This document shows positions 32,053-49,578 of a DNA stretch of 64,000 nucleotides, in pieces. Source of the DNA: Candidatus Hadarchaeota archaeon (lineage in GTDB: Archaea > CAYQAE01 > CAYVLA01); assembly GCA_964621445.1 (NCBI GenBank), contig CAZUNO010000008.1, forward strand, positions 38,483-102,482, written 5' to 3'. The notes beneath the pieces were generated by a model. That model worked only from the letters and a program-made list of their open reading frames with translations, had not been told where the DNA came from and did no database searches. Position numbers and translations under genes: made by a program. Each line of letters begins with the position of its first letter. The stretch's first letter is position 1.

Positions 32053-33453
32053 TCAAGCACCGTTCTTGGTGGAAATACTTGAAACATCCTTGCCCGGTCG
32101 CCCAACCGGTGGTTTCCAGGTTGACGGGTGGAAAAGAATGCCCTTGGACTCCGAGGAGTATGGGACCCCTCTGATATATTTGGTCAGGTTGTTTAGCAGT
32201 TTTCTGTTGAAGACCTCTCTGTCCTCCGAGGGGTGGAGTGGAATTGCGGTTACCTCCAGGTCGTCCTCTTCTACATCCTGAATTTCCACAAATTTTGGAA
32301 ACAGGCCTATGTTTACCTCCACCCTCCTCTTTTCCCCGGGGGATATCTCAACATCAGAGTATCCTCTTATGTGCAGTGCCCTGTTTTCCCTCTTTTGTCC
32401 CAGTTGCCTGGGATAGAAGGTGTCAAGAAACCGCATTCTCTGGTAGCTTCTGGACCATATACGATCCGCCACCTGGTCCACAGGCAGGTAGTAGATCTCA
32501 ATCTCGATTCTCTCCCCGCCCTCACCCCTATGATCGGGATTAGACAGGGTGCCGGTGAACATCGGACCGGAGCCAGGGTTCGAATAGTAATTAAACATCT
32601 TGACCTGTTCTTCCATGACGTCCGTTACCTCGAACAGGGACCAAAGCTCGTAGATCTTCGAGGAATACTCCAAGCCCTTCCCGGGTATGTCCCTGAGTAT
32701 CCTCGTCGATTCCCTGTCTATATTCATCCTTCCCGTCAGTTCCTTTCTCCAGTCCAGGACCTTCTCATATCCGGGATTCCGAATTAGATTTAGCTCCAGG
32801 CGGCGTTCGAATTCCTCCTCAACCTCCCGGATTCTGTCCGGGTCCTCGAGTATTTCCTCGGCTTCCTCCTCTATCTTCCTGAAGTAGGGAACCCTGGTCC
32901 TCCTGTAACCCTCCTGTGAGAGGGCGTCGAGAACCCTCTCCTCAACCACGTTGTCTGTCCAGTGGCTGGTCTCAACCGATTTCTTGAAGACCCTCTTGAA
33001 GTAGGAGGTATTTTTGGTTATCTCCAGAAGACAGAGCATTGAAAGCAGGTTTTCCGGGGTGTCCCACTCCTGTCTGGGATTGACGACCACGAACTCCTTC
33101 CCGAAGATCTGGCCCTGGGAGAGGTTTCGCTTGAAAGTGCGGGGCCAGTCGATGGTCCCCCTTATCTCCTTCTCGACCACGGTTCTCTCCCTGGTGGAGA
33201 AGAAACTTGGCTTCTTCTCTATCATGGGCATGATGTCGTTTAGGAGAACGTGGGATATCGATTCCAGTGTATTCAGTTTGAAGGCATCCTCGAACTTCTC
33301 CCTGGAAAGGTCAAGCTTGGTGTCCTCGGCCAGGTTAACCTTGATCCGCTTCAGATCCAGGTCCTCCAGAAAGTTGGTAAGGAGCAGGCCGAATACCCGT
33401 TTTCGCATGTACTGGTTCATTGAATCCTGGAGCATTTCCTCCATTTGGTTCAT
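32053..33453 (-). CDS. McrC/DUF2357-like protein with an apparently degenerate PD-(D/E)xK site
   Basis: IRGTIDWPRT, WDTPENLL and KIYELW motifs typical of McrC-like proteins; in an operon with McrB. Start moved to ATG 33453. Confidence 0.72.
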   Translation of the reverse strand: MNQMEEMLQDSMNQYMRKRVFGLLLTNFLEDLDLKRIKVNLAEDTKLDLSREKFEDAFKLNTLESISHVLLNDIMPMIEKKPSFFSTRERTVVEKEIRGTIDWPRTFKRNLSQGQIFGKEFVVVNPRQEWDTPENLLSMLCLLEITKNTSYFKRVFKKSVETSHWTDNVVEERVLDALSQEGYRRTRVPYFRKIEEEAEEILEDPDRIREVEEEFERRLELNLIRNPGYEKVLDWRKELTGRMNIDRESTRILRDIPGKGLEYSSKIYELWSLFEVTDVMEEQVKMFNYYSNPGSGPMFTGTLSNPDHRGEGGERIEIEIYYLPVDQVADRIWSRSYQRMRFLDTFYPRQLGQKRENRALHIRGYSDVEISPGEKRRVEVNIGLFPKFVEIQDVEEDDLEVTAIPLHPSEDREVFNRKLLNNLTKYIRGVPYSSESKGILFHPSTWKPPVGRPGKDVSSISTKNGA

Positions 33454-33457
33454 GCCT

Positions 33458-36400
33458 CTAGCTTCCAGACTTCTCGGCCAGCCTTCTCCTGCTGTCCAGG
33501 ACATAACCTGCCACGACGAAGAGGATTATCACCGAGAGGGCCAGTAGTATCCTGGGGCCGCTCTTGCTGGCCACTGCGCTTACCGTGTTTGTATTCAATT
33601 CCTCATTCCCGGCCAGGTCCTCGGATCTAACCCAGTAGTAGTACTCCTTGCCGTTCTCCAGATCGGAGTCGATGTAACTGGTTTCATTGGTGGTGGTTAC
33701 CAGCGAGAGATTTTCGGTGGTATTGGAACTCGATCTGTACACCTTGAACCTGACATCCCTTTCCGGAGGCGATCTCCACCTAAGTTCTATTTCACCGCCC
33801 GGTAGCGACTTGGCCGAAAGGTTGGTTGGTGGTGAGGGAGGAAGCGTGTCCAGGGACATCACGGATTTCCAGTTATCGTTGTCCTCCTCGTTATCGTGGC
33901 GGTCAACCGCCCTTACCAGGTAGTAGTAATTATCACCGCTTGTCACGTTGCTATCCTCAAAGACGGTGAGGTTGGTCTCGGCAATCATTTCTGCTCCTGC
34001 AATGCCGGCACCGGATGAGGACTTGTATACCCTGTACACCGATACATCACTGCTCTGGGGATGGCTCCAGTGCAGACGAATGTTCCCATTGGCCAGCTGA
34101 TCGGTCTCCAGGTCCTGTGGTGGGAGGGGTGGTATCTTTTCCATGGATACCGCTGATACCTCTATCATGTTGCTCTCCTCCTGGCCGTTTGGGCCCACGG
34201 ATCTAACCACGTAGATGTACTCCTGGGAGTGGTTGAGTTCCGAATCCTGGAAGGAGTTGGTGGGATAGGGGATCTGGGCCAGCGGAAGCGAGAAATCGGA
34301 ATCCTCGGTCCTCCGGTAAACCCTGAAACTATCGGCAGGGGCCGAGGAGACATTCCAAGTGAGGAGGATATCTCCATTATCCTTTGGGGTGGCCTCAAGG
34401 CCCGTGGGATGGGGTGGGGGGGTCGTGGCCTGAACCCTGTTGTCGTTATCATCCTCGTTCCCGACGGAGTCCGCGGAATGGACTATGTAATAATAGGTTT
34501 GCGAGGGACCCAGGCCGCGGTCCGTGAACTGGGTTTCGTATGTCTGGTTTAGGTAGTTCTGATTACCAGGTGTGAAATAGGGGGAGTTGGAACGGTAGAC
34601 GAAGTATTTTGCCGGGTTTTCACCGCTTGGAGCCCTCCATTCCAGCCTGATGCTGCCGGTTCCAGAGCCCTCGGCACTCAGTGCCACCGGTGCTCCCGGA
34701 GGTTCGGTGTCCACCGATCTTATGGATGTCTCGATTTCGTTTTCCTCCTCATTTCCGGTTGAATCGACCGCCCTGACCACGTAGTAGTAGGTCTCGTCAT
34801 GTTCCACGAAGTTGTCGTTGAAAATGGCTATGGCCGACTGTGCGTATGGCTGGTTATAGTTCTGGGAAAGGGGGCTTCGGGACCTGTATATGTTGTAATG
34901 GGATATTGGTTCCCCCTGGGGAGGAGTCCAGGTCAGCACGATGGAGCCGTTTGGACGGAGCTGGGCCTTGAGGTTCCTGGGGGCCGAGGGGGGCTTGTCC
35001 AGAGCGGTCACATAGATTTCATCCCTGTTCTCCTCCTCGTTCCCGGCCTCGTCGACCGACCTCACCACGTAGTAATAACGGGTCCCCGACTCCAGATTCT
35101 CATCATAGTAGATTATCCTCGAGGTCTCGGCGATGGGGCTGTAGAAGTTGTAGCTTCCGGAACTCGTGGATCTGTATATCCTGTAGACCTCGACCTGCTC
35201 GCCGATGGGGGTTGCCCACCGAAGCTCGATATCCCCTGTAGGCTGGGGCAGGGCATCGAGCTTCCGGGGCTTGCTAGGCGGTTCGCTGTCGGATACTGCG
35301 GAGACCTCCTCCGATTTGATTCCCTCATTCCCGTAAAGGTCCACCGCCCGGACGTAGTAGTAGTAACGTTTGCCGTTGATCATCTCGTGGGCGACTCCGC
35401 CAATTACCCGTTTGGCGTCGATGAACTGGGTGGATATGGTCGTGGTCCAGGGCTCCGTCTGTTTGAGTCCCGGTCGGGTGGCACGGTAGACGTGGTACTT
35501 CTGGACTGAGCCGGAGCCATCCTGGGGTGGGTCCCAACTGACCTCGATCACCCCATCCTCTCCGGGGTCTGCCTGGAGGTTCCGTGGGGGTCCTAGGAGC
35601 ACAGGGGCGACTATCTCGTTTGTGTTTTGTCCCTCGTTGTCGGCCTTGTCAACGGAGCGGATCACGTAACGGTACTTGATCGCCTCGGATACGTCGTTGT
35701 CCACAAATGCATTTTTCCTGGTGACTATCAAGGGTTCGGAGAAGTCCTGCTTTTCATCTCCCCTGAACTTGTAAAGCCTGTATTCATGCACCCTCTCACC
35801 CGCTGGGTCATCCCAGGTGAGTATTACCTCCCCGGTGGTACTCCTTCTCGCCTTCAGATCTAGGGGCGGAGATGGCGGTTGGGCGTCGGCGGTTCCGTTG
35901 GCCTCAAACTGGTTGTGATCCTCGTTCCCCGCGGAGTCCACGGAGCGTACGACGTAGTGGTAGGTTATCCCGTTCCTTAGCCCCTTATCCACGAAATATG
36001 GGTTTGGTGTCTCCGCGATGGGCCTGTCGAAGTCCTGAGCGCCGCTGGAGGTGGCGCTGTATATCCTGTATAGAACCGCCTTGTCCGCGGGTCGGCCCCG
36101 TGTGCTTCCAGTTTCAACCGGCGGTACCGTCCAGTTCAGCATGAGATCGCCCTTGGAGAGCTTGGTGACAATTAGACCCCTGGGCGCGGCGGGGGGCGTG
36201 AGGTCCTCGGAAATATTGGAAACCTCGAGGGTATTGGTGTCCTCGTTAAGCAGGAAATCCGCGGACCTGACCACGTAGTAATACTGTTGACCATCAGTTA
36301 CATTATCGTCGACCCATTCCGTATTGGAGACCATGGCAAAGGGGAAGTCGAATTCCTGGGCGTCGGGCACGCTCGATCGGTATATGTTGTATCTATAGGG

Positions 36401-38425
36401 GGCCTCCCCGGAGGGGGCTCTCCAATCTAACTTGATCCTGCCATCTCTCAAACGAATGGTCCTCAAGTCTAGCGGGCTACCCGGCGGCGAGGTATCGGCC
36501 ACGGCGCTGGCAGACGTCTTTTCGTCCTCCATGTTCTCGTTACCCACCGCGTCAACCGATCTTACCACATAGTAGTAGGCCTGCCCGTCTATGAGGTCCG
36601 TGTGTTGGGCGAAGGTTTCGGTGGTGGTAATCATACGCGCGGGATCCGGCTTGAATCCCTCATAGGTATTCCAGTAAACGTGATAGTGGTCCACATCTTC
36701 CCGCATCTGCTTGGCGATATCAGGGTCCTCAACATTCGATCCCGGTGGCATCCAGCTGATCCCGATCTTACCACCTTTCCTGGGAACGGCGATGACCATG
36801 GTTACGTGGGGCGGGGGAGTTTCGTCCCGGGACACCACGCGAATTTCCTCGGTGTTTTCCTCGACATTGCCAGCTGAATCCACTGACCTCACAACGTAAT
36901 AGTACGGAACTCCGTCCTCTACCTCCCGGTCCGTGAAGGAGGTGCCAGAGACCACTGCCAGGGGTCGAGAGAAGTTATGCCCCTCGGAGATATTTGACTT
37001 GAATATCCTGTACTCGGCCGGGGTCTCGCCGCCCGGGGGGAGCCAGGTCAGCTTTATTCTACCTCCCATGTCCGTGTCCTCGGCCTTTAATGCACGGGGT
37101 GGGCTTGGTGGGGTAGTGTCCTGCGACATGGCGGAAACCTCTATGGTATTGTTCTCCTGGTTCCCGGCCGCGTCCGATGCCCGGACGACGTAGTAATAGG
37201 TCACTCCTTTCTCCACATTCTTGTCGATAAAGGGAGGTTCCCGTACCGTCTTGTAGGGGTTCCAGAACTCCTGGGCTCCGCTTTCGGTTGACCTGTATAT
37301 GGTGTACCTGAAGACCTCCTCACCACTGGGTATGAGCCAGGTCAAGTTGAGGTAGCCGGTCTCGTCCGTGGTTACCGAGGGGAATACAGGTGCCAAAGGA
37401 GGAATGGTGTCATCCGGGGTGGCGTTGAACACCGGGGAGGGTTCGCTTGGATTCTCATTCTCGTCGAATGCCACGACCAGATAGAAATGAAGGTAATTGG
37501 CGGATATATCCTGGTGGAGGAAGACGGGGTCACGTACGAATCCTATAAGGTTTTCATCGGCGGCCCCGAATTCGGGTTCTCTCGAGTGGTAGATATTGTA
37601 GCCAACCACGTCGGGCTCGGGATTTCTTTGCCAGGTCAGATTTATGGAGTTTCCCTCCTCCGGGGCCCAGCCGGTAAGGCCAGCTACCGGTGAGGGAGCT
37701 ATGGTGTCATTCACGGGAACCGCGAAGTTCTCGGCCTTCCTGACCAGAGAGGGGTTACCGGCATGATCGATGACCTTGACCCCGTACCAGTATTTTACGC
37801 CGTCAATGAGGTTGCTCTCCGGGTCGTACCACTGGATCAGGTCCTGATTGGAGATATTGGCCACATCAAGAACATCTGAGAAGTTGGCTGTGTTGGCCCG
37901 GACGACGGTGTACCGCCTAAAGTCCTTCCCATCATACCGGGTCCAGTTCACTCTTACGGCCCCTCTCTCGGTTGCATTTACCTCGCATCTCCTGGGTCTA
38001 TTGGGTTCCTGGTCGTCGATGGTGATGTTAAGAACATCGGTTGTGCCCTCTATTCCATCGCCATCGATGTCGGAGCGAAGCTCGACCAATGCACCGTTAC
38101 GGGTCCTGATCATATCCCGCTGGTCGTCGGTCTGAAAGCGATCGGTGAGGAAGCTACCCCTGTAGATCCCGGACCCCGGGATGACCTCCTCCATGATAAC
38201 CTGTATCTGGACCCCACCAACGCGCACATACATCAAGGGCTCCGTGGCCCCTCCCGTTCCTAGGGACCGGAAGTATACGGTCGAACCGGGTCGGAAAAAC
38301 AGGTTCTGCCTGGTTCGGTTGACGTCCTCGTAGGTCATTATCTGGGTATCCGCGGCAGCGCTTGCGCTTTGGATAAGCAGACAGGAGGAAAGCATGATCA
38401 ACAGTATGGCGAATTCTCTGCGCAT
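33458..38425 (-). CDS. Large cell-surface protein with 15 fibronectin type III repeats and a C-terminal TM anchor
   Basis: Signal peptide; 15 repeats of PPxxPxxL...LxW...YxIYR...YYYVVRxVDxxGNE; TM ILLALSVIILFVVAGYVL followed by RRR. Confidence 0.9.
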   Translation of the reverse strand: MRREFAILLIMLSSCLLIQSASAAADTQIMTYEDVNRTRQNLFFRPGSTVYFRSLGTGGATEPLMYVRVGGVQIQVIMEEVIPGSGIYRGSFLTDRFQTDDQRDMIRTRNGALVELRSDIDGDGIEGTTDVLNITIDDQEPNRPRRCEVNATERGAVRVNWTRYDGKDFRRYTVVRANTANFSDVLDVANISNQDLIQWYDPESNLIDGVKYWYGVKVIDHAGNPSLVRKAENFAVPVNDTIAPSPVAGLTGWAPEEGNSINLTWQRNPEPDVVGYNIYHSREPEFGAADENLIGFVRDPVFLHQDISANYLHFYLVVAFDENENPSEPSPVFNATPDDTIPPLAPVFPSVTTDETGYLNLTWLIPSGEEVFRYTIYRSTESGAQEFWNPYKTVREPPFIDKNVEKGVTYYYVVRASDAAGNQENNTIEVSAMSQDTTPPSPPRALKAEDTDMGGRIKLTWLPPGGETPAEYRIFKSNISEGHNFSRPLAVVSGTSFTDREVEDGVPYYYVVRSVDSAGNVEENTEEIRVVSRDETPPPHVTMVIAVPRKGGKIGISWMPPGSNVEDPDIAKQMREDVDHYHVYWNTYEGFKPDPARMITTTETFAQHTDLIDGQAYYYVVRSVDAVGNENMEDEKTSASAVADTSPPGSPLDLRTIRLRDGRIKLDWRAPSGEAPYRYNIYRSSVPDAQEFDFPFAMVSNTEWVDDNVTDGQQYYYVVRSADFLLNEDTNTLEVSNISEDLTPPAAPRGLIVTKLSKGDLMLNWTVPPVETGSTRGRPADKAVLYRIYSATSSGAQDFDRPIAETPNPYFVDKGLRNGITYHYVVRSVDSAGNEDHNQFEANGTADAQPPSPPLDLKARRSTTGEVILTWDDPAGERVHEYRLYKFRGDEKQDFSEPLIVTRKNAFVDNDVSEAIKYRYVIRSVDKADNEGQNTNEIVAPVLLGPPRNLQADPGEDGVIEVSWDPPQDGSGSVQKYHVYRATRPGLKQTEPWTTTISTQFIDAKRVIGGVAHEMINGKRYYYYVRAVDLYGNEGIKSEEVSAVSDSEPPSKPRKLDALPQPTGDIELRWATPIGEQVEVYRIYRSTSSGSYNFYSPIAETSRIIYYDENLESGTRYYYVVRSVDEAGNEEENRDEIYVTALDKPPSAPRNLKAQLRPNGSIVLTWTPPQGEPISHYNIYRSRSPLSQNYNQPYAQSAIAIFNDNFVEHDETYYYVVRAVDSTGNEEENEIETSIRSVDTEPPGAPVALSAEGSGTGSIRLEWRAPSGENPAKYFVYRSNSPYFTPGNQNYLNQTYETQFTDRGLGPSQTYYYIVHSADSVGNEDDNDNRVQATTPPPHPTGLEATPKDNGDILLTWNVSSAPADSFRVYRRTEDSDFSLPLAQIPYPTNSFQDSELNHSQEYIYVVRSVGPNGQEESNMIEVSAVSMEKIPPLPPQDLETDQLANGNIRLHWSHPQSSDVSVYRVYKSSSGAGIAGAEMIAETNLTVFEDSNVTSGDNYYYLVRAVDRHDNEEDNDNWKSVMSLDTLPPSPPTNLSAKSLPGGEIELRWRSPPERDVRFKVYRSSSNTTENLSLVTTTNETSYIDSDLENGKEYYYWVRSEDLAGNEELNTNTVSAVASKSGPRILLALSVIILFVVAGYVLDSRRRLAEKSGS

Positions 38426-38436
38426 CTTAAGACACC

Positions 38437-40920
38437 TCAGGTGGCGATTTGATCGAGTATGTCGAGGCCCATGGTCATTGCTCTAAGCTCGGTGGCCACT
38501 CTGGAGTCCTTGCCGAGAACCTTTTCCACGTTCTGTACCAGATCCTCGTCTATCTCCCTGTTCATTCCGTCAAGCTGGGGCAAGACGTTGGACTCTATTG
38601 CTCTGTCCAGCAGGTCCAGGTGCTGGGCATCGTCGTCCATTAGGAGCCCCATGAGAACGAATCTCAGGGTGTCGATCATCTGAGCGGTTCCGATACCCCG
38701 TAGTTTCCTTATCCCAGTCTCCGCGTTCATGACGTCGTATAGCTTGTCTACAAGGCTCCTGTATGGGGTGCTGGACAGCACCCTGTCGACCCTGCCCATT
38801 CCCAGGCTATTCTTGACGTCTTCAAAGGCCCCTCCCCGTTCACCGGTTAGTATGGCCCTCTCCTGGTCATGGGGCGGAATGGGCATCCCGATAAAGGCAA
38901 AACGACGCATGAGGGCGTAGGAAATGTTGAACAGAAAATGCCTATCATAGGTGTTTAGGGTGCCTATTATCCTGTAGTCATCGGGTATTCGCACGGTTTG
39001 GGTCTCGTTTTCCAGGGTCGGTATGTTGAGCTGGCGGGATTCGATGGCGGTGAACATCCCCCCGAAAGCCTTGTCTATGTCGGCCCTGTTGAATTCATCT
39101 ATGATTAGCCACCTCCCGGACAGTGCAGTTTGGGTGACGCATCCGAGCTTGATGCTCATCTTCTTTCCATCGTACATGAGACCCCCGATGACATCATAGG
39201 TGGTCCAGTCCGAGGTTGCGGTCTCCACGGTGTACGGCTTGTCGAATATCATGGAAGGGATCATCTTGGCTAGTTCCGTCTTCCCCGTCCCCGGGGAGCC
39301 GATGAGTATAACGTCCTTACCCATGAGCAGGTTGGTGACCACCTCGCGGATTATCTCCTCGTTTATTGCCAGTCGGCTCTTTATCTGGGCTATCTTGTCC
39401 TCCATATCAGTGGGCAGGGAAAGCCCCCGTCCGGCCTCTCCACTGAGGACGGTGTCCTGAACCTCGGTCTCCTCCTCTTCCTCGCCCTCTGAACTCCAGA
39501 CGGCGGCCATTCTCTCCGTGTACCTGCCTATGAAGGAATCGATGGTACGGCTCACGAAGTCGGTCCCCAGAAGGACCAGCCAGGCGAGAATTGAAAGAAG
39601 AACCGCTGCCCCCAGGAATATGGCCGGCCCGTTCTCGATCTCCGGTCCAACAAGCCTGGAGCCGAATAGAATGATGAAGGGGCCGAAGACTGCGGCAACG
39701 GCCCGAGAGCTGAATATGGAGGACAGTCCGATAAGGATTAGGAATGCCAGGCCCGCCGACCCGTAGAACCAGGTCTGGGCATCGGCGATTGGGGAGTATC
39801 CCATCTGCTGGGATTCGGTCATGAATGAACCGACGGCCAGGGATACCACCAGCAACACTGCCACGTTTTTAAACTGCAGCTTTCCCTCCCTGATGTGGGT
39901 CGGTATTTCCAGCTTGCTGGATCTCCACTGCATTAATGCCACAAAACCCGCGATCGCTATAAGAGCAACCGCGATATCCGATCCCCGGAAGATGCCGGCT
40001 ATTCGTAGATTCCCAAGGAGTCCGTCAAGACCCCAGTAGAGTCCCAGAAACCACACCGGGATGGTCATTACCACCACGGTGCTGGGGTGGAATAGGTAAT
40101 AGGCCCCCGAGGCCAGGGCCAGGAAGCTCACGTTTGTAATGAGGAACCACTCCACGTTTGATCCAACGGTCTCGAAGACCGGTGGAATCTCTCCCCAGAG
40201 AAAGACCGAAAGTGAAAGGGACCCGATAAGGATGACTAGCAGATGAACCAATTTTGCCTCGCTTTTCACCAACCTGTAGAGTGACAGATATAGTGTGATC
40301 GCGGCTAGGATGATCAACCCGGCATTCCCTATCCCGAAGATCAGACGGTAGACCCCTAGGGCAATGAGAGGGGCGAACACCATCCTGGGCAGGTCATCGG
40401 TCCCGTATCTCTCTATTATGGTGGTCTCCACCAGAAAGCATAGAAGCGCACCCAGCGAGAGAGCGGTACCCGATCCCATGTATGGAATATAGATCATGGC
40501 CTTAGGGGTGGATATGAAGGCCCCTACCGATAAGCTTGATGCCAATAGAATTGCCAGGTCCTCGATCTTCATGGTGCGGATATCAATCCTAAGAGCCATG
40601 AAGGCGCTAAGAACCAGCAGGGAGACGATGACCAGGAGATTGATTGATATCTCCCCGAAGGGGACGGCTAGCCAGATTAGGTTGAGGGGGGCAAGAGTCC
40701 TGACCGAACCCCTAGGGTCGTATCTCTGTGCCAAGGATATCTCCGCTAGTGCGCTTAGAGCGAGGACGAAGATTCCTGTGAGCAGTCTATAATTTCCAGC
40801 CGGAGTAAGCCGGGCGGTTAGTGCCGCCAGGGCAAGCGAGGAGGACAAAATCATCGCTAGTTCCAGAGGTCTAAGGTTCATTCCGCCAATAGATAAGGGA
40901 GAACGTAATCTCTCCATCAT
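38437..40920 (-). CDS. McrB-family AAA+ GTPase fused to an N-terminal polytopic membrane domain
   Basis: Walker A GSPGTGKT, Walker B LIIDEFNRAD, McrB signature GTLNTYD (NxxD) and ALMRRF; about 16 hydrophobic helices in aa 21-457 of the ORF. Start moved to ATG 40920 after GGAGG. Confidence 0.85.
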   Translation of the reverse strand: MMERLRSPLSIGGMNLRPLELAMILSSSLALAALTARLTPAGNYRLLTGIFVLALSALAEISLAQRYDPRGSVRTLAPLNLIWLAVPFGEISINLLVIVSLLVLSAFMALRIDIRTMKIEDLAILLASSLSVGAFISTPKAMIYIPYMGSGTALSLGALLCFLVETTIIERYGTDDLPRMVFAPLIALGVYRLIFGIGNAGLIILAAITLYLSLYRLVKSEAKLVHLLVILIGSLSLSVFLWGEIPPVFETVGSNVEWFLITNVSFLALASGAYYLFHPSTVVVMTIPVWFLGLYWGLDGLLGNLRIAGIFRGSDIAVALIAIAGFVALMQWRSSKLEIPTHIREGKLQFKNVAVLLVVSLAVGSFMTESQQMGYSPIADAQTWFYGSAGLAFLILIGLSSIFSSRAVAAVFGPFIILFGSRLVGPEIENGPAIFLGAAVLLSILAWLVLLGTDFVSRTIDSFIGRYTERMAAVWSSEGEEEEETEVQDTVLSGEAGRGLSLPTDMEDKIAQIKSRLAINEEIIREVVTNLLMGKDVILIGSPGTGKTELAKMIPSMIFDKPYTVETATSDWTTYDVIGGLMYDGKKMSIKLGCVTQTALSGRWLIIDEFNRADIDKAFGGMFTAIESRQLNIPTLENETQTVRIPDDYRIIGTLNTYDRHFLFNISYALMRRFAFIGMPIPPHDQERAILTGERGGAFEDVKNSLGMGRVDRVLSSTPYRSLVDKLYDVMNAETGIRKLRGIGTAQMIDTLRFVLMGLLMDDDAQHLDLLDRAIESNVLPQLDGMNREIDEDLVQNVEKVLGKDSRVATELRAMTMGLDILDQIAT

Positions 40921-41060
40921 ATGTCCTCCTGGCAAAAAACGTCCAGGTCTATAGAGCTGGATAAAGGAATCTCGAGATCATAAAAATGTCTTTGTGGATC
41001 ATGATCAACCCCTTTCAACCTATCCCTATACATTTGAGGAGAAATCGCGGAGTGATGGAC

Positions 41061-41795
41061 TCAGACTTCGTTCCAACCCTTTCGTTCTATTCCTCCTCCC
41101 GTCAGCTGGTAGTAGCTCTCCCTTGCGCAGGGTATGCAGCATGTCTTGCCCCTTTTCTTGACCGAGCGGGTGGTCATGAACATCTCTCCGCAATTTTCGC
41201 ATATCACGCTTTCATGTATCCTTGCGTATCCCGGGAGCTTCGGTTGGGCTTCATGAAAGGAAAATAGCCTATCTACGTCGGCGGTTATTACCATATAGGA
41301 TTTTTTGGCGGATTGGTTGGGGAAACTGTCCGGTAACGGTTCCTCCCCCTCGCTCTGTTTGCTTTCGGCATCCCAGACCTCGGAAGCCTGAGGGTTGATG
41401 CATGCTCTGACCCCCTGCCCACTTCTGTTTGCCAGTGTTGCTGCCGTCTTTCCGTAATCACTGAATACGAGGGCATTGTTGCCAAAGGTACATCCAGTGG
41501 TGAACTGTATTCCATCCGAGAAGCAGTTGTTGGTCTCCACGATAGCTATTACGTCCTCCATCCCTCGATGTCTGGCATTAAGCCTCCTGACCATCTCCGT
41601 GCCCGCCCTGATCCCCAGAGCAAGGCCCGGGCAGAAGTGTCCGTGCAGTGTCCCGGCTCGCTTGAGGAGCTCGACCAAATTGTTTTTGCCGATTAGGTCC
41701 CATACTTCCTTTCTTGGTTCGCTCAGCATTTCCCATATCGCCGTAGCACCAATTGTGAATTCGTGACATAATAACTCTTTGCCCTCTTCGCTCAT
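41061..41795 (-). CDS. FmdE-family protein with C-terminal zinc finger
   Basis: HGHFCPGLALG, CFSDGIQFTTGCTFGN, CENCGE and CIPC motifs. Confidence 0.9.
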   Translation of the reverse strand: MSEEGKELLCHEFTIGATAIWEMLSEPRKEVWDLIGKNNLVELLKRAGTLHGHFCPGLALGIRAGTEMVRRLNARHRGMEDVIAIVETNNCFSDGIQFTTGCTFGNNALVFSDYGKTAATLANRSGQGVRACINPQASEVWDAESKQSEGEEPLPDSFPNQSAKKSYMVITADVDRLFSFHEAQPKLPGYARIHESVICENCGEMFMTTRSVKKRGKTCCIPCARESYYQLTGGGIERKGWNEV

Positions 41796-49122: not shown

Positions 49123-49578
49123 TCATTTCTTTTTCTTCACTTCGATCTTGTTCGGTGATACCTTCTTTACATTTAGTCTTTGACCCTTCTTCCAACCCAG
49201 AGACTCCACTACATCCTTGGGTACGGTGATGGTGTACTGAACTGTTCTACCTCCCTTGGGGAGTCCGTGGGCTTTGGCCTGTAGCTTAACGGATGTCTTT
49301 GGCGTTGTGACTTCGAAGGTTTCCAAGAGCCAGGTGCCCTTGTCGTCCCATATGTCGGCCAGGATTTTTCCTCCCTGTTTTCTTATGCAGCCGCGAGGTG
49401 TGGATCCAGAAAAAAGCGAGGCCTGTTCCTCCCCCTCCGGTCCTGCGAGTCCGGAGGGAACCCTGAAATCTCCGTATGCTGTATGCAACTTCTTTCCCTT
49501 CAGTACAGCTTTCCTCAATATGAAACTCTCCGAGATATATTCAACTGTAATTGGCACAATATAAAGAATTTGCAGCAA
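49123..49578 (-). CDS. AbrB/MazE/SpoVT-domain protein with an unknown N-terminal region
   Basis: C-terminal QYTITVPKDVVESLGWKKGQRL; start uncertain. Confidence 0.7.
   Translation of the reverse strand: MLQILYIVPITVEYISESFILRKAVLKGKKLHTAYGDFRVPSGLAGPEGEEQASLFSGSTPRGCIRKQGGKILADIWDDKGTWLLETFEVTTPKTSVKLQAKAHGLPKGGRTVQYTITVPKDVVESLGWKKGQRLNVKKVSPNKIEVKKKK

What the first reader, a model, noticed from the sequence alone, without database searches (positions are those of the whole stretch)
32053..40920. Membrane-embedded McrBC-like system with a 15xFN3 surface protein between the GTPase and its McrC-like partner
Seen: three co-oriented genes separated by only 11 bp (TGA-GGTGTCTTAAG-ATG) and 4 bp (TAG-AGGC-ATG), with RBS-like motifs overlapping the stops. 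Gene 1 has every McrB motif (GSPGTGKT, IIDEFNR, NTYD, ALMRRF) but a polytopic membrane N-terminus. Gene 2 is a secreted, TM-anchored 1655-aa FN3 array. Gene 3 has McrC/DUF2357-type motifs (RGTIDW, DTPEN, YELW). Established: McrB is a hexameric AAA+ GTPase whose N-terminal domain normally binds modified DNA, and McrC stimulates the GTPase and cleaves; the pair is normally cytoplasmic and adjacent. Inference: the motor is tethered to the membrane and coupled to an extracellular receptor or adhesin. It could sense virion or cell contact, police or translocate incoming DNA, or act as a repurposed envelope-remodelling motor. I know of no described system with this architecture.
Basis: partly seen in the sequence, partly recalled or inferred. 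Interest (0 to 1): 0.92.

Follow-up and report, generated by a model that had tools for sequence, protein, structure and literature searches.

The report
Membrane-bound McrBC relative with surface fibre
In a small group of uncultured archaea, the motor of a DNA-restriction enzyme has lost its DNA reader and its cutting site, gained a large membrane domain, and sits in one conserved operon with a very long cell-surface protein, so it has probably been re-used for a job at the cell envelope.

Summary
Three minus-strand genes lie 11 bp and 4 bp apart.

- **Gene 1** has 12-15 predicted membrane helices followed by a McrB-type GTPase module. Its only solved-structure matches are McrB. It carries the canonical NxxD signature, as do all 108 nearest non-family relatives.
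- **Gene 2** is a secreted protein with 15 FN3 repeats and a C-terminal membrane anchor.
- **Gene 3** matches no Pfam, NCBIfam or PADLOC model. A profile search links it to McrC-like proteins. Its AlphaFold model (pLDDT 84.7) matches McrC best in two independent fold searches. It keeps the finger that plugs the McrB ring but has lost the PD-(D/E)xK catalytic residues.

The order g1-g2-g3 is kept in all 9 related loci examined. These loci lie in a housekeeping neighbourhood and diverge at housekeeping rates. The system occurs in 4 of 4 genomes of one archaeal family and was not found in the sister family.

The nearest relatives of genes 1 and 3 are ordinary cytoplasmic McrBC pairs in Nitrosopumilus.

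Best reading: a McrBC motor re-used at the cell envelope, not a restriction enzyme. The closest named analogue is the uncharacterised bacterial CoCoPALM class, but the CoCoPALM features that could be tested are not met. What the system does remains inferred.

The parts
38437..40920 (-). Gene 1: polytopic-membrane McrB-family GTPase (826-832 aa, depending on start codon)
   Evidence: ORF, translation, Pfam AAA_5 1.1e-19, McrB-only matches among solved structures. The 12 family members are 818-836 aa.
39565..40920 (-). Gene 1 membrane domain: 12 hydrophobic segments here, 12-15 across the family, with ~100-residue internal repeats. No relative found outside the family.
   Evidence: Hydropathy scan. 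hhalign self-comparison: residues 115-209 vs 346-440, prob 96%, E 2.7e-9. Homology search found only a family member. Atlas search blank.
39463..39489 (-). Acidic linker (EGEEEEETE) between the membrane domain and the GTPase module
   Evidence: Translation; a Glu-rich stretch is kept in all 12 family members.
38440..39510 (-). Gene 1 McrB-type AAA+ GTPase module: Walker A 39277-39300, Walker B 39085-39105, NxxD signature loop 38938-38958, ALMRRF 38899-38916
   Evidence: Alignment to E. coli McrB 6hz4_A, E 1.4e-12, with LNTYDRH on MNTADRS. Motifs invariant in the family. NxxD in 109 of 109. Coordinates.
33458..38425 (-). Gene 2: 1655-aa surface protein. Signal-like segment (38354-38425), unassigned ~120-aa N-terminal domain (37994-38353), 15 FN3 repeats (33575-37993), TM anchor (33494-33556), basic tail (33461-33493).
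   Evidence: Pfam fn3 7e-55. TM scan. 15 repeats and 27 N-x-S/T sequons. Orthologues 1663-1684 aa and collinear.
32053..33453 (-). Gene 3: McrC-like protein with an inactivated nuclease domain (463-466 aa from the ATGs at 33444 or 33453)
   Evidence: No Pfam, PADLOC or NCBIfam match. Profile link to McrC-like proteins. AF2 pLDDT 84.7. McrC ranks top in Foldseek and VIA-align.
32731..33291 (-). Gene 3 finger region: beta-stalk with a loop-helix-loop tip carrying RGTIDW (33145-33162), DTPEN (33049-33063), and a helical bundle with invariant R215/R222 (32779-32811)
   Evidence: VIA-align: model 52-238 on T. gammatolerans McrC 138-280, Z 9.3, rmsd 4.4 A over 143 residues. Secondary structure. Columns invariant or near-invariant across 56 sequences. 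Finger description from Niu et al. 2020.
32125..32673 (-). Gene 3 C-terminal domain: PD-(D/E)xK-like fold elements without the catalytic D...(D/E)xK; family-specific invariant IPLHPSEDRE (32215-32244) and NRKLLxNLTKYIR helix (32167-32208)
   Evidence: Family alignment has no invariant D or K between residues 282 and 400. Relatives carry PDF...DAKNY where this family has IRGxSxxEISPG. The E. coli McrC match spans model 52-425.
40921..41060 (-). Upstream intergenic region with AT-rich, TATA-like stretches and GGAGGA before the start codon; presumed operon promoter
   Evidence: Sequence only. Not tested; no RNA run was listed.

Best explanation
This is a McrBC restriction motor re-used at the cell envelope. 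Gene 1 is a McrB-family GTPase of the canonical NxxD branch. Its usual N-terminal DNA-reading domain is replaced by a ~455-residue, 12-15-helix membrane domain. By analogy with McrB it should form a hexameric ring hanging under the membrane on an acidic linker. Gene 3 is a McrC homologue. It keeps the finger (beta-stalk, loop-helix-loop tip, helical bundle) that in McrBC plugs the ring and triggers GTP hydrolysis, but its nuclease domain has lost the catalytic residues. Gene 2 is a 15-FN3, probably glycosylated, C-terminally anchored surface fibre. It is co-inherited between the other two genes and presumably co-transcribed. The proposed mechanism is that gene 3 gates GTP hydrolysis in the gene 1 ring, and the resulting conformational cycle passes through the membrane domain to gene 2, to insert, hold, tension or release it. 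Shown here: the family assignments, the loss of reader and nuclease, the predicted membrane and secretion features, the conserved operon, and the core-genome setting. Inferred: hexamer formation, gene 1-gene 3 binding, GTPase stimulation, any contact with gene 2, and the envelope role itself.
For: - Gene 1 is McrB-type. Solved-structure matches at E<=0.01 are 5 sequences, all McrB (6hz4_A 1.4e-12). NxxD occurs in 109 of 109 aligned sequences. The nearest non-family relatives are 33-41% identical over ~80-90% of the GTPase region and carry EVE, SRA, HARE-HTH or Mrr_N domains.
- The membrane domain is specific to this family. The 12 family members have 12-15 hydrophobic segments; the other 108 listed relatives have at most 2 (91 have none).
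- Gene 3 is McrC-like. An exhaustive profile search gave 58 remote relatives (best E 1.7e-12), matching profile positions ~57-285. A profile of 8 family members plus 48 relatives hits only McrC among solved structures (6hz4_M 6.8e-6, 6ut5_G 1.6e-3). The AF2 model has pLDDT 84.7. In Foldseek, ranks 1, 2, 3 and 5 are McrC (best E 5.7e-4, prob 0.98). In VIA-align, the only 2 of 48,161 chains with Z>=8 are McrC (9.6 and 9.3).
- The nuclease is lost. Relatives have PDF...DAKNY; the family has no invariant D or K there.
- The operon is conserved. The order g1-g2-g3 is found in 9 of 9 loci (7 complete, 2 cut by contig ends). Gene 2 length is fixed at 1663-1684 aa. Repeats within gene 2 are only 19-47% identical to each other, against 56-67% between orthologues.
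- The setting is core genome. Flanks are SecY, EMC3-like, Cmk, Cbf5 and a methyltransferase on one side, and H+-PPase and PolX on the other. The flanks are syntenic in relatives, and identities (g1 65-72%, g2 56-67%, g3 65-76%) are similar to Cmk 59-64%, PolX 59-60% and Cbf5 68-71%.
- The system is present in 4 of 4 genomes of the family.
- There is a precedent for McrBC re-use at the membrane: CoCoPALM.
Against: - No experiment or expression data exist, and no RNA run was listed.
- Gene 3 matches no curated McrC or DUF2357 model directly. The link is transitive and structural, and the structural TM-scores are low (0.18-0.25), because the protein is elongated and only domains superpose.
- The loss of catalytic residues is read from an alignment at 15-22% identity. 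A non-canonical active site cannot be excluded, and the invariant IPLHPSEDRE motif is unexplained.
- The membrane domain has no known relatives, so nothing says what it does.
- Tight operon linkage does not prove that gene 2 is the motor's substrate.
- All loci come from one narrow lineage, so the 9 loci are not independent.
Confidence: 0.55

Rival explanations
1. The FN3 gene is a passenger. It is an ordinary surface or S-layer-like protein that happens to be transcribed with a membrane-anchored, nuclease-less McrBC pair, and that pair acts on something else, such as another envelope component, membrane remodelling or nucleic acid at the membrane.
For: Nothing measured links gene 2 to genes 1 and 3. 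The membrane domain has no recognisable function. The nearest McrBC relatives have no gene between B and C.
Against: Gene 2 sits between the two partners, with 11-bp and 4-bp gaps in this window. It keeps the same position and length in all 9 related loci, at 33-44% protein divergence. No locus with genes 1 and 3 but without gene 2 was seen.
Confidence: 0.2
2. It is a surface-sensing defence or abortive-infection system. The FN3 array detects a virion or a foreign cell, the signal crosses the membrane domain, and the GTPase with gene 3 triggers a response through the remodelled C-terminal domain of gene 3.
For: It descends from McrBC defence systems. The closest relatives sit beside an MmeI/Eco57I-type methylase and a YprA/MZB-type helicase in Nitrosopumilus. 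Gene 3 has an invariant, unexplained C-terminal motif.
Against: No effector domain is recognisable, and there are no PADLOC hits for genes 2 or 3. The nuclease motif is lost. The locus is in a syntenic housekeeping region, was found in 4 of 4 genomes of the family, and evolves at housekeeping rates, unlike the usual patchy, island-borne defence genes. The FN3 repeats are conserved one-to-one rather than diversifying.
Confidence: 0.13
3. It is a working Type IV restriction enzyme that cuts incoming DNA at the membrane.
For: It has a McrB-type motor and a McrC-type partner.
Against: It has no DNA-reading domain. No conserved D...(D/E)xK is present in gene 3, while its nearest relatives keep it. 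No other nuclease lies in the operon.
Confidence: 0.03
4. It is a MoxR- or GvpN-type AAA+ chaperone rather than a McrB derivative.
For: JGI labels some family members 'MoxR-like ATPase'. There are weaker hits to Pfam AAA_3 (35.6 bits) and NCBIfam GvpN (3.9e-9).
Against: No MoxR, RavA or CbbQ structure matched at E<=0.01, while 5 McrB sequences did. The McrB-specific NxxD loop and a McrC-fold partner are present. No VWA or gas-vesicle genes are among the neighbours.
Confidence: 0.02

Closest known systems
Canonical McrBC Type IV restriction systems (E. coli McrBC; Thermococcus gammatolerans McrBC; structures 6HZ4, 6UT3-6UT8)
   Same: Gene 1 has the McrB-type GTPase module with Walker A, Walker B and the NxxD signature loop. 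Gene 3 has the McrC-type finger fold with its conserved tip motifs. The two are encoded in one operon. The nearest relatives are ordinary cytoplasmic McrB/McrC pairs in Nitrosopumilus.
   Different: A 12-15-helix membrane domain replaces the DNA-reading domain. The nuclease catalytic residues are lost. A 1655-aa secreted FN3 protein is encoded between B and C. The locus is core-genome and syntenic, not in a defence island.
[quoted passage not shown]
   Same: Both have a membrane-associated McrB-like GTPase and an operon link to exported surface proteins. Both suggest McrBC re-used for a surface structure rather than restriction. Nuclease-less McrC partners in CoCoPALM-type operons are reported by this scan's earlier notes (unchecked here); the paper's own statement about missing or inactive nucleases concerns the coiled-coil CoCoNuT clade.
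   Different: CoCoPALM GTPases belong to the NxD branch and carry an FtsB-like single TM helix plus coiled coil. [quoted passage not shown] Here the motif is NxxD, the anchor is a polytopic repeat domain, no signal peptidase is among the 10 neighbours scanned, and the host is an archaeon. This looks like an independent origin.
CoCoNuT Type II / III-B / III-C CnuC proteins with an inactivated PD-(D/E)xK fold (Bell et al. 2024)
   Same: A McrC homologue keeps the DUF2357-type N-terminal domain and the nuclease fold but lacks the catalytic motif (passages; here).
   Different: [quoted passage not shown] They belong to the NxD branch, are cytoplasmic, and are described as nearly absent in archaea. 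No substitute nuclease is seen here.
MoxR/RavA-VWA and GvpN AAA_5 chaperone systems
   Same: The same broad Pfam family (AAA_5), and non-nucleic-acid, assembly-type roles.
   Different: There is no VWA or Gvp partner. The signature loop, the partner and the best structural relatives are all of McrB/McrC type.

Membership tests
McrB-family AAA+ GTPase | AAA+ core with Walker A and Walker B (DExx) | tested here: met
   GSPGTGKT and IIDEFNR are present, invariant in 12 of 12 family members, and aligned to the same motifs in 108 relatives.
McrB-family AAA+ GTPase | McrB signature/consensus loop MNxxDR (NxxD) in place of sensor I | tested here: met
   LNTYDRH aligns to E. coli MNTADRS. N-x-x-D occurs in 109 of 109 aligned sequences. 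The feature is defined in Niu et al. 2020 and Bell et al. 2024.
McrB-family AAA+ GTPase | Closer to McrB than to MoxR, GvpN or other AAA_5 proteins | tested here: met
   The 5 solved-structure sequences matched at E<=0.01 are all McrB. The best NCBIfam hit is McrB at 3.7e-11, though far below its equivalog cut-off (42 vs 637 bits).
McrB-family AAA+ GTPase | N-terminal nucleic-acid-reading domain (variable between members) | tested here: not met
   The first ~455 residues are a polytopic membrane domain with no Pfam domain.
McrB-family AAA+ GTPase | GTP-specific hydrolysis stimulated by McrC; hexamer formation | not testable with these tools
McrC (DUF2357 N-terminal/finger domain plus PD-(D/E)xK nuclease) | Match to the curated McrC (PF10117) or DUF2357 (PF09823) models | tested here: not met
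   Pfam gave no such hit for gene 3 at E<=0.1. Genome-wide searches with PF09823 and PF10117 at E<=10 did not hit the locus. Among the 56 sequences of the wider alignment, 3 match PF10117 and 6 match PDDEXK_7, none of them from this family.
McrC (DUF2357 N-terminal/finger domain plus PD-(D/E)xK nuclease) | McrC finger fold (helical bundle, beta-stalk, loop-helix-loop tip) | tested here: met
   The AF2 model has pLDDT 84.7. VIA-align gives Z 9.6 (E. coli McrC, 244 residues) and Z 9.3 (T. gammatolerans McrC finger, 143 residues, rmsd 4.4 A); the next hit is 7.2. Foldseek rank 1 is McrC with prob 0.98. Caveat: the alignment used for the model included the McrC-like relatives.
McrC (DUF2357 N-terminal/finger domain plus PD-(D/E)xK nuclease) | Catalytic D...(D/E)xK in the C-terminal domain | tested here: not met
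   No invariant D or K lies between residues 282 and 400 in 14 family members. Relatives have PDF...DAKNY or DPKN.
McrC (DUF2357 N-terminal/finger domain plus PD-(D/E)xK nuclease) | Basic residue in the helical bundle that stimulates McrB (Arg263 in T. gammatolerans, Lys157 in E. coli) | tested here: inconclusive
   Invariant R215 and R222 lie in the bundle region. No residue-level superposition was available to show which, if either, is equivalent.
CoCoPALM | NxD variant of the GTPase signature | tested here: not met
   The motif here is NxxD. Bell et al. place CoCoPALM among NxD systems.
CoCoPALM | FtsB-like TM plus coiled-coil N-terminus on the GTPase | tested here: not met
   The N-terminus has 12-15 TM segments and no Pfam match. 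No coiled-coil predictor was run.
CoCoPALM | Association with signal-peptidase-family (pilus-assembly) genes | tested here: not met
   None of the 10 neighbouring genes scanned is a signal peptidase. Related loci show the same housekeeping flanks.
Known anti-phage defence systems (PADLOC models) | Significant match to a defence-system protein model | tested here: not met
   Gene 1 has only weak P-loop-level hits (best IetA, 3.1e-5, over the Walker A region). Genes 2 and 3 have none.

The most novel reading that the evidence does not exclude
An archaeal lineage independently turned a McrBC restriction motor into a GTP-driven membrane machine. A hexameric ring of about 70-90 membrane helices is gated from the cytoplasm by a nuclease-dead McrC 'rotor' or plug, and it mechanically operates a fixed-length 15-FN3 surface fibre (docking, tensioning, extending or shedding it) through that fibre's conserved KxGPR-TM-RRR C-terminal signal. 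This would be a new class of prokaryotic envelope motor, convergent with bacterial CoCoPALM.
Probability: 0.2. Interest if true: 0.85.

Novelty: new variant of a known kind. Interest (0 to 1): 0.62.

Why it matters
McrBC is the textbook GTP-driven restriction motor. Its re-use for non-defence work at the membrane has so far only been hinted at, in one named but uncharacterised bacterial class (CoCoPALM).

This locus is a second and apparently independent case. It comes from the canonical NxxD branch and occurs in archaea. Its anatomy is unusually clean: three genes, no accessory enzymes, a polytopic membrane domain with no known relatives, and a single giant surface protein as the obvious candidate client.

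If the coupling is real, it gives a minimal system for asking how an AAA+ ring with a central plug, which Niu et al. compare to F/V-type ATPases, can do work across a membrane. It would also show how defence machinery is domesticated into core cell biology.

The significance is limited by the narrow host range: one family of uncultured archaea.

Tried and rejected
- **First gene 3 model.** The AF2 model built from only 14 close homologues was poor (pLDDT 53.7). Its Foldseek search gave nothing meaningful (best E 0.069). It was replaced by the 56-sequence model.
- **Direct searches with gene 3.** Pfam, PADLOC and NCBIfam gave nothing. A profile of the 14 family members alone against solved structures gave only one chance-level hit (BepE, E 0.69).
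- **Membrane domain.** The ESM Atlas gave no usable hit. The word-indexed homology search, restricted to proteins of 258-823 aa, found only one family member. Proteins outside that length range were not searched.
- **Gene 2 N-terminal domain.** Atlas scores were at most 0.79, which is chance level.
- **Complex prediction.** Gene 1 membrane domain (residues 1-470) was folded with the gene 2 C-terminus (residues 1540-1655). The tool's verdict was 'weak support': score 0.33 against a best control of 0.00, runs agreeing in at least 89% of contacts, partner pLDDT at least 65. At this score the mark was reached by 7 of 80 solved complexes and by both of the 2 mismatched pairs (of 110) that passed. 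The controls may not have been membrane proteins, so a lone TM helix packing against a TM bundle may be generic. I give it little weight.
- **RNA evidence.** No RNA holder was listed, and read laying was not used.
- **Genome scan with a 24-sequence alignment of remote relatives.** It failed for lack of a conserved stretch and was repeated with 6 sequences.
- **Rejected readings.** A MoxR/GvpN reading and a canonical restriction reading were considered and rejected; see the rival explanations.
- **Earlier notes of this scan.** Nothing was found at this place or for this sequence.
- **Literature.** 'CoCoPALM' occurs as a system name only in Bell et al. and its preprint. 'McrB' with 'fibronectin type III' and 'archaea' returned nothing relevant. 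'McrB, McrC, transmembrane, GTPase' returned no description of this architecture among the 8 papers listed. The supplementary files of Bell et al. could not be read. Their census of about 34,000 systems from NCBI nr may include the three family members that are in NCBI.

Full report
**Observation**

The window carries three co-oriented minus-strand ORFs at 38437-40935, 33458-38425 and 32053-33504. The gene 1 stop and the gene 2 start are 11 bp apart (TGA-GGTGTCTTAAG-ATG). The gene 2 stop and the first plausible gene 3 start are 4 bp apart (TAG-AGGC-ATG). Purine-rich, Shine-Dalgarno-like runs overlap both stops. Two start codons are uncertain:

- Gene 1 may start at TTG 40935 or at the ATGs at 40920 or 40917. 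The public protein database holds an 826-aa form.
- Gene 3 may start at 33453 or 33444. The database holds a 463-aa form.

**Gene 1**

Pfam finds only AAA_5 (1.1e-19, residues 541-679) and nothing in the first ~500 residues. A hydropathy scan gives 12 membrane-length segments in residues 51-451. The 12 family members in the database have 12-15 segments each.

The C-terminal 357 residues match 5 distinct sequences among solved structures at E<=0.01. All 5 are McrB, from E. coli and Thermococcus gammatolerans (best 1.4e-12). LNTYDRH aligns on the McrB signature MNTADRS.

A database search with residues 480-832 returned 1924 proteins at E<=1e-5, of which 120 are listed. Twelve are the membrane-form family (818-836 aa, at least 81% identical). 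The next best is 40% identical. Many of the rest carry EVE (PF01878), SRA, HARE-HTH or Mrr_N domains, which are the reader domains of McrB-type restriction GTPases.

In an alignment of gene 1 with the 108 listed non-family relatives, 109 of 109 have the four-residue N-x-x-D form of the signature. Of those 108 relatives, 91 have no hydrophobic segment and 17 have one or two. The polytopic domain is therefore specific to this family.

The membrane domain has no detectable relatives. It contains internal repeats of about 100 residues:

- Residues 115-209 against 346-440: hhalign probability 96%, E 2.7e-9.
- Residues 220-288 against 346-414: probability 53%.

Composition bias in membrane segments may inflate these scores.

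The GTPase module is the best conserved part of the operon (81-88% identity), and the membrane domain is the least conserved part of gene 1 (51-61%).

**Gene 3**

Gene 3 has no match in Pfam, PADLOC or NCBIfam. Searching the whole genome with PF09823 (DUF2357) and PF10117 (McrBC) at E<=10 does not hit the locus. The word-indexed search finds only 14 proteins, all at least 63% identical.

An exhaustive hmmsearch with their alignment against 1.84 billion representatives finds 59 proteins at E<=1e-3. These are the family's own representative plus 58 remote relatives (best E 1.7e-12), which match profile positions ~57-285.

I aligned 8 of the 14 family members with 48 of the 58 relatives; ten short or fragmentary matches were left out.

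The relatives continue into PDF...DAKNY...KMLxYL, a PD-(D/E)xK nuclease signature. The gene 3 family has IRGxSxxEISPG at that place, and no invariant Asp or Lys anywhere between residues 282 and 400.

Evidence that the relatives are McrC-type:

- Six of the 56 sequences weakly match PDDEXK_7 and three match the McrBC model. None of these is from the gene 3 family.
- A profile of the 56 sequences hits only two solved-structure sequences at E<=10, both McrC (6hz4_M 6.8e-6, 6ut5_G 1.6e-3). The signal comes mainly from the relatives' nuclease region.

With this alignment AlphaFold2 gives a confident model (pLDDT 84.7, pTM 0.76). Two fold searches agree:

- Foldseek ranks McrC chains 1, 2, 3 and 5 (best E 5.7e-4, probability 0.98; TM-scores are only 0.18-0.25).
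- VIA-align, which does not depend on Foldseek, finds two of 48,161 chains with Z>=8. Both are McrC: E. coli at Z 9.6 over 244 residues (model 52-425), and T. gammatolerans at Z 9.3, rmsd 4.4 A over 143 residues (model 52-238 on chain 138-280). The next row scores 7.2.

Niu et al. 2020 (PMC7680126, passages read) describe the T. gammatolerans McrC finger (residues 99-288). It is a helical bundle plus a beta-sheet stalk ending in a loop-helix-loop tip that plugs the McrB pore. Arg263 (Lys157 in E. coli) triggers hydrolysis at one active site.

The gene 3 model has strands 82-90 and 118-126 flanking a loop-helix-loop (helix 100-109) that carries RGTIDW. The most conserved motif therefore sits where the pore-plugging tip should be. 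Invariant R215 and R222 in the bundle are candidates for the stimulating residue, but I could not superpose at residue level.

The C-terminal domain keeps the order of secondary-structure elements of the relatives' nuclease domain. I read it as an inactivated PD-(D/E)xK fold. It has a family-specific invariant motif, IPLHPSEDRE, of unknown role.

**Gene 2**

Gene 2 has these parts:

- a signal-like N-terminus;
- a ~120-residue domain with no assignment;
- 15 FN3-type repeats (Pfam fn3 7e-55; 15 by each of two motif patterns);
- 27 N-x-S/T sequons;
- an invariant KxGPR segment, a TM helix and an Arg-rich tail.

Repeats within the protein are 19-47% identical to each other (mean 34.5%). Orthologues are 56-67% identical, collinear over ~1467 residues, and 1663-1684 aa long. 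The array is therefore old and of fixed length. It is neither expanding nor diversifying.

**Conservation and setting**

The neighbours are archaeal housekeeping genes. On one side lie SecY, an EMC3/TMCO1-like insertase, cytidylate kinase, Cbf5 and a small methyltransferase. On the other lie an FmdE-like protein, H+-pyrophosphatase and PolX.

Among the held species genomes, the phylum has only five. Gene 3 is found in 4 of 5, namely all four of one family. It was not found in the single genome of the sister family, which is 98% complete. Gene 1 gives the same result there. Gene 3 was found in none of 36 further archaeal genomes sampled.

Two genome loci and seven metagenome loci were examined. 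All nine show g1-g2-g3 in the same order. Seven are complete and two are cut by contig ends. L019 appears to duplicate L006, and L017 and L018 are near-identical to each other, so only about six loci are distinct.

The flanks are syntenic in most loci. The three genes diverge about as much as their neighbours: g1 65-72%, g2 56-67% and g3 65-76%, against Cmk 59-64%, the methyltransferase 55-62%, PolX 59-60%, Cbf5 68-71% and SecY 77-89%. The genome holds no second McrB-type gene; the only other hit is a 27%-identical AAA protein. This is the profile of a vertically inherited core function, not of a mobile defence island.

**Origin**

A scan of 185,579 species genomes with six of the closest remote relatives of gene 3 returned four loci, all in Nitrosopumilus MAGs. 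In two of them I checked the genes.

- A cytoplasmic AAA_5 protein (966 or 852 aa; Walker A and B, NxxD; no TM segment) is directly followed by the McrC-like protein (504 or 490 aa) with PD...DxK intact.
- In L021 the pair lies between a YprA-type helicase with an MZB/DUF1998 domain and an MmeI/Eco57I-type methylase. This is the kind of DISARM-like association that Bell et al. describe for one NxxD branch.

The archaeal membrane system thus appears to derive from ordinary NxxD McrBC through three changes: replacement of the reader domain, decay of the nuclease site, and insertion of the FN3 gene.

**Mechanism (inferred)**

By homology, gene 1 should form a GTP-dependent hexamer, held under the membrane by six polytopic domains through an acidic linker. 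Gene 3 should insert its finger into the ring and stimulate hydrolysis at one site at a time, as in McrBC.

There is no DNA reader and no nuclease, so the output is unlikely to be DNA cleavage. The only conserved candidate client is gene 2. I propose that the GTPase cycle is transmitted through the membrane domain to the gene 2 anchor.

Two conserved loops are predicted to face outward, from the positive-inside pattern of the flanking loops: FLWGEIPPxLQTVGSDAEWF and SFLTEPxQMxYSPIxDESTWF. They are candidate contact sites. The one complex prediction run is described under Tried and rejected and carries little weight.

**Comparison and novelty**

The system works like McrBC at the level of motor and plug, but it fails the restriction-enzyme features (reader and nuclease).

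The nearest named concept is CoCoPALM (Bell et al. 2024). Earlier notes of this scan describe seven bacterial CoCoPALM-type loci, one of them with giant surface proteins (I did not check those). This locus does not meet CoCoPALM's stated features:

- It has NxxD, not NxD.
- Its anchor is a polytopic repeat domain, not an FtsB-like TM plus coiled coil.
- No signal peptidases were found among the neighbours.
- The host is an archaeon.

I therefore file it as a new variant of a known kind: membrane-associated, nuclease-less McrBC derivatives, probably arisen independently. I found no publication describing it. The supplementary tables of Bell et al., which I could not read, may list family members.

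Noticed in passing
window 39565-40920 (gene 1 membrane domain): The membrane domain seems to be built from three tandem repeats of about 100 residues. Each has a conserved acidic/aromatic loop (PKxMxYIP; GEIPPxLQTVGSDAEWF; TEPxQMxYSPIxDESTWF). hhalign gives 96% probability for repeats 1 vs 3 and 53% for 2 vs 3. No relative was found outside the family.
   Followed up: partly
window 33461-33575 (gene 2 C-terminus): The gene 2 C-terminus has an invariant KxGPR motif, then a TM helix, then an Arg-rich tail. This has the three-part shape of sortase/archaeosortase-type sorting signals, but it matched no known CTERM model in NCBIfam. Whether it is processed is unknown.
   Followed up: no
window 32215-32244 (gene 3): The invariant IPLHPSEDRE motif lies in the inactivated nuclease domain and is absent from the nuclease-active relatives. 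It is a possible new binding or catalytic site.
   Followed up: no
L021:2152-12856 and L020:2849-9464 (Nitrosopumilus MAG loci): The closest McrC-like relatives lie in canonical McrBC pairs. In L021 the pair sits between a YprA/MZB-type helicase and an MmeI/Eco57I-type methylase. In L020 a divergently transcribed 535-aa protein with a signal-like segment, an He_PIG Ig domain and a C-terminal TM segment lies just upstream.
   Followed up: partly
G002:C22:8791-11071 (L026, L027): In the fragmented family genome G002 the gene 1 homologue is matched in two pieces (profile positions 5-94 and 193-827). This may be a frameshift, an assembly error or a disrupted gene. Its gene 3 is also split over two contigs, with one in-frame TAA.
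   Followed up: no
window 41061-41795: An FmdE-domain protein with a DksA/TraR-type zinc finger lies directly upstream of the operon. It was found only in the window and in L013 among the related loci, so it is not part of the conserved unit.
   Followed up: partly
window 49123-49578: This 151-aa ORF carries a MazE/AbrB-type antitoxin-like domain at its C-terminus (Pfam 3.4e-7). It lies in a lower-GC stretch (0.45-0.48 at 46-50 kb).
   Followed up: no
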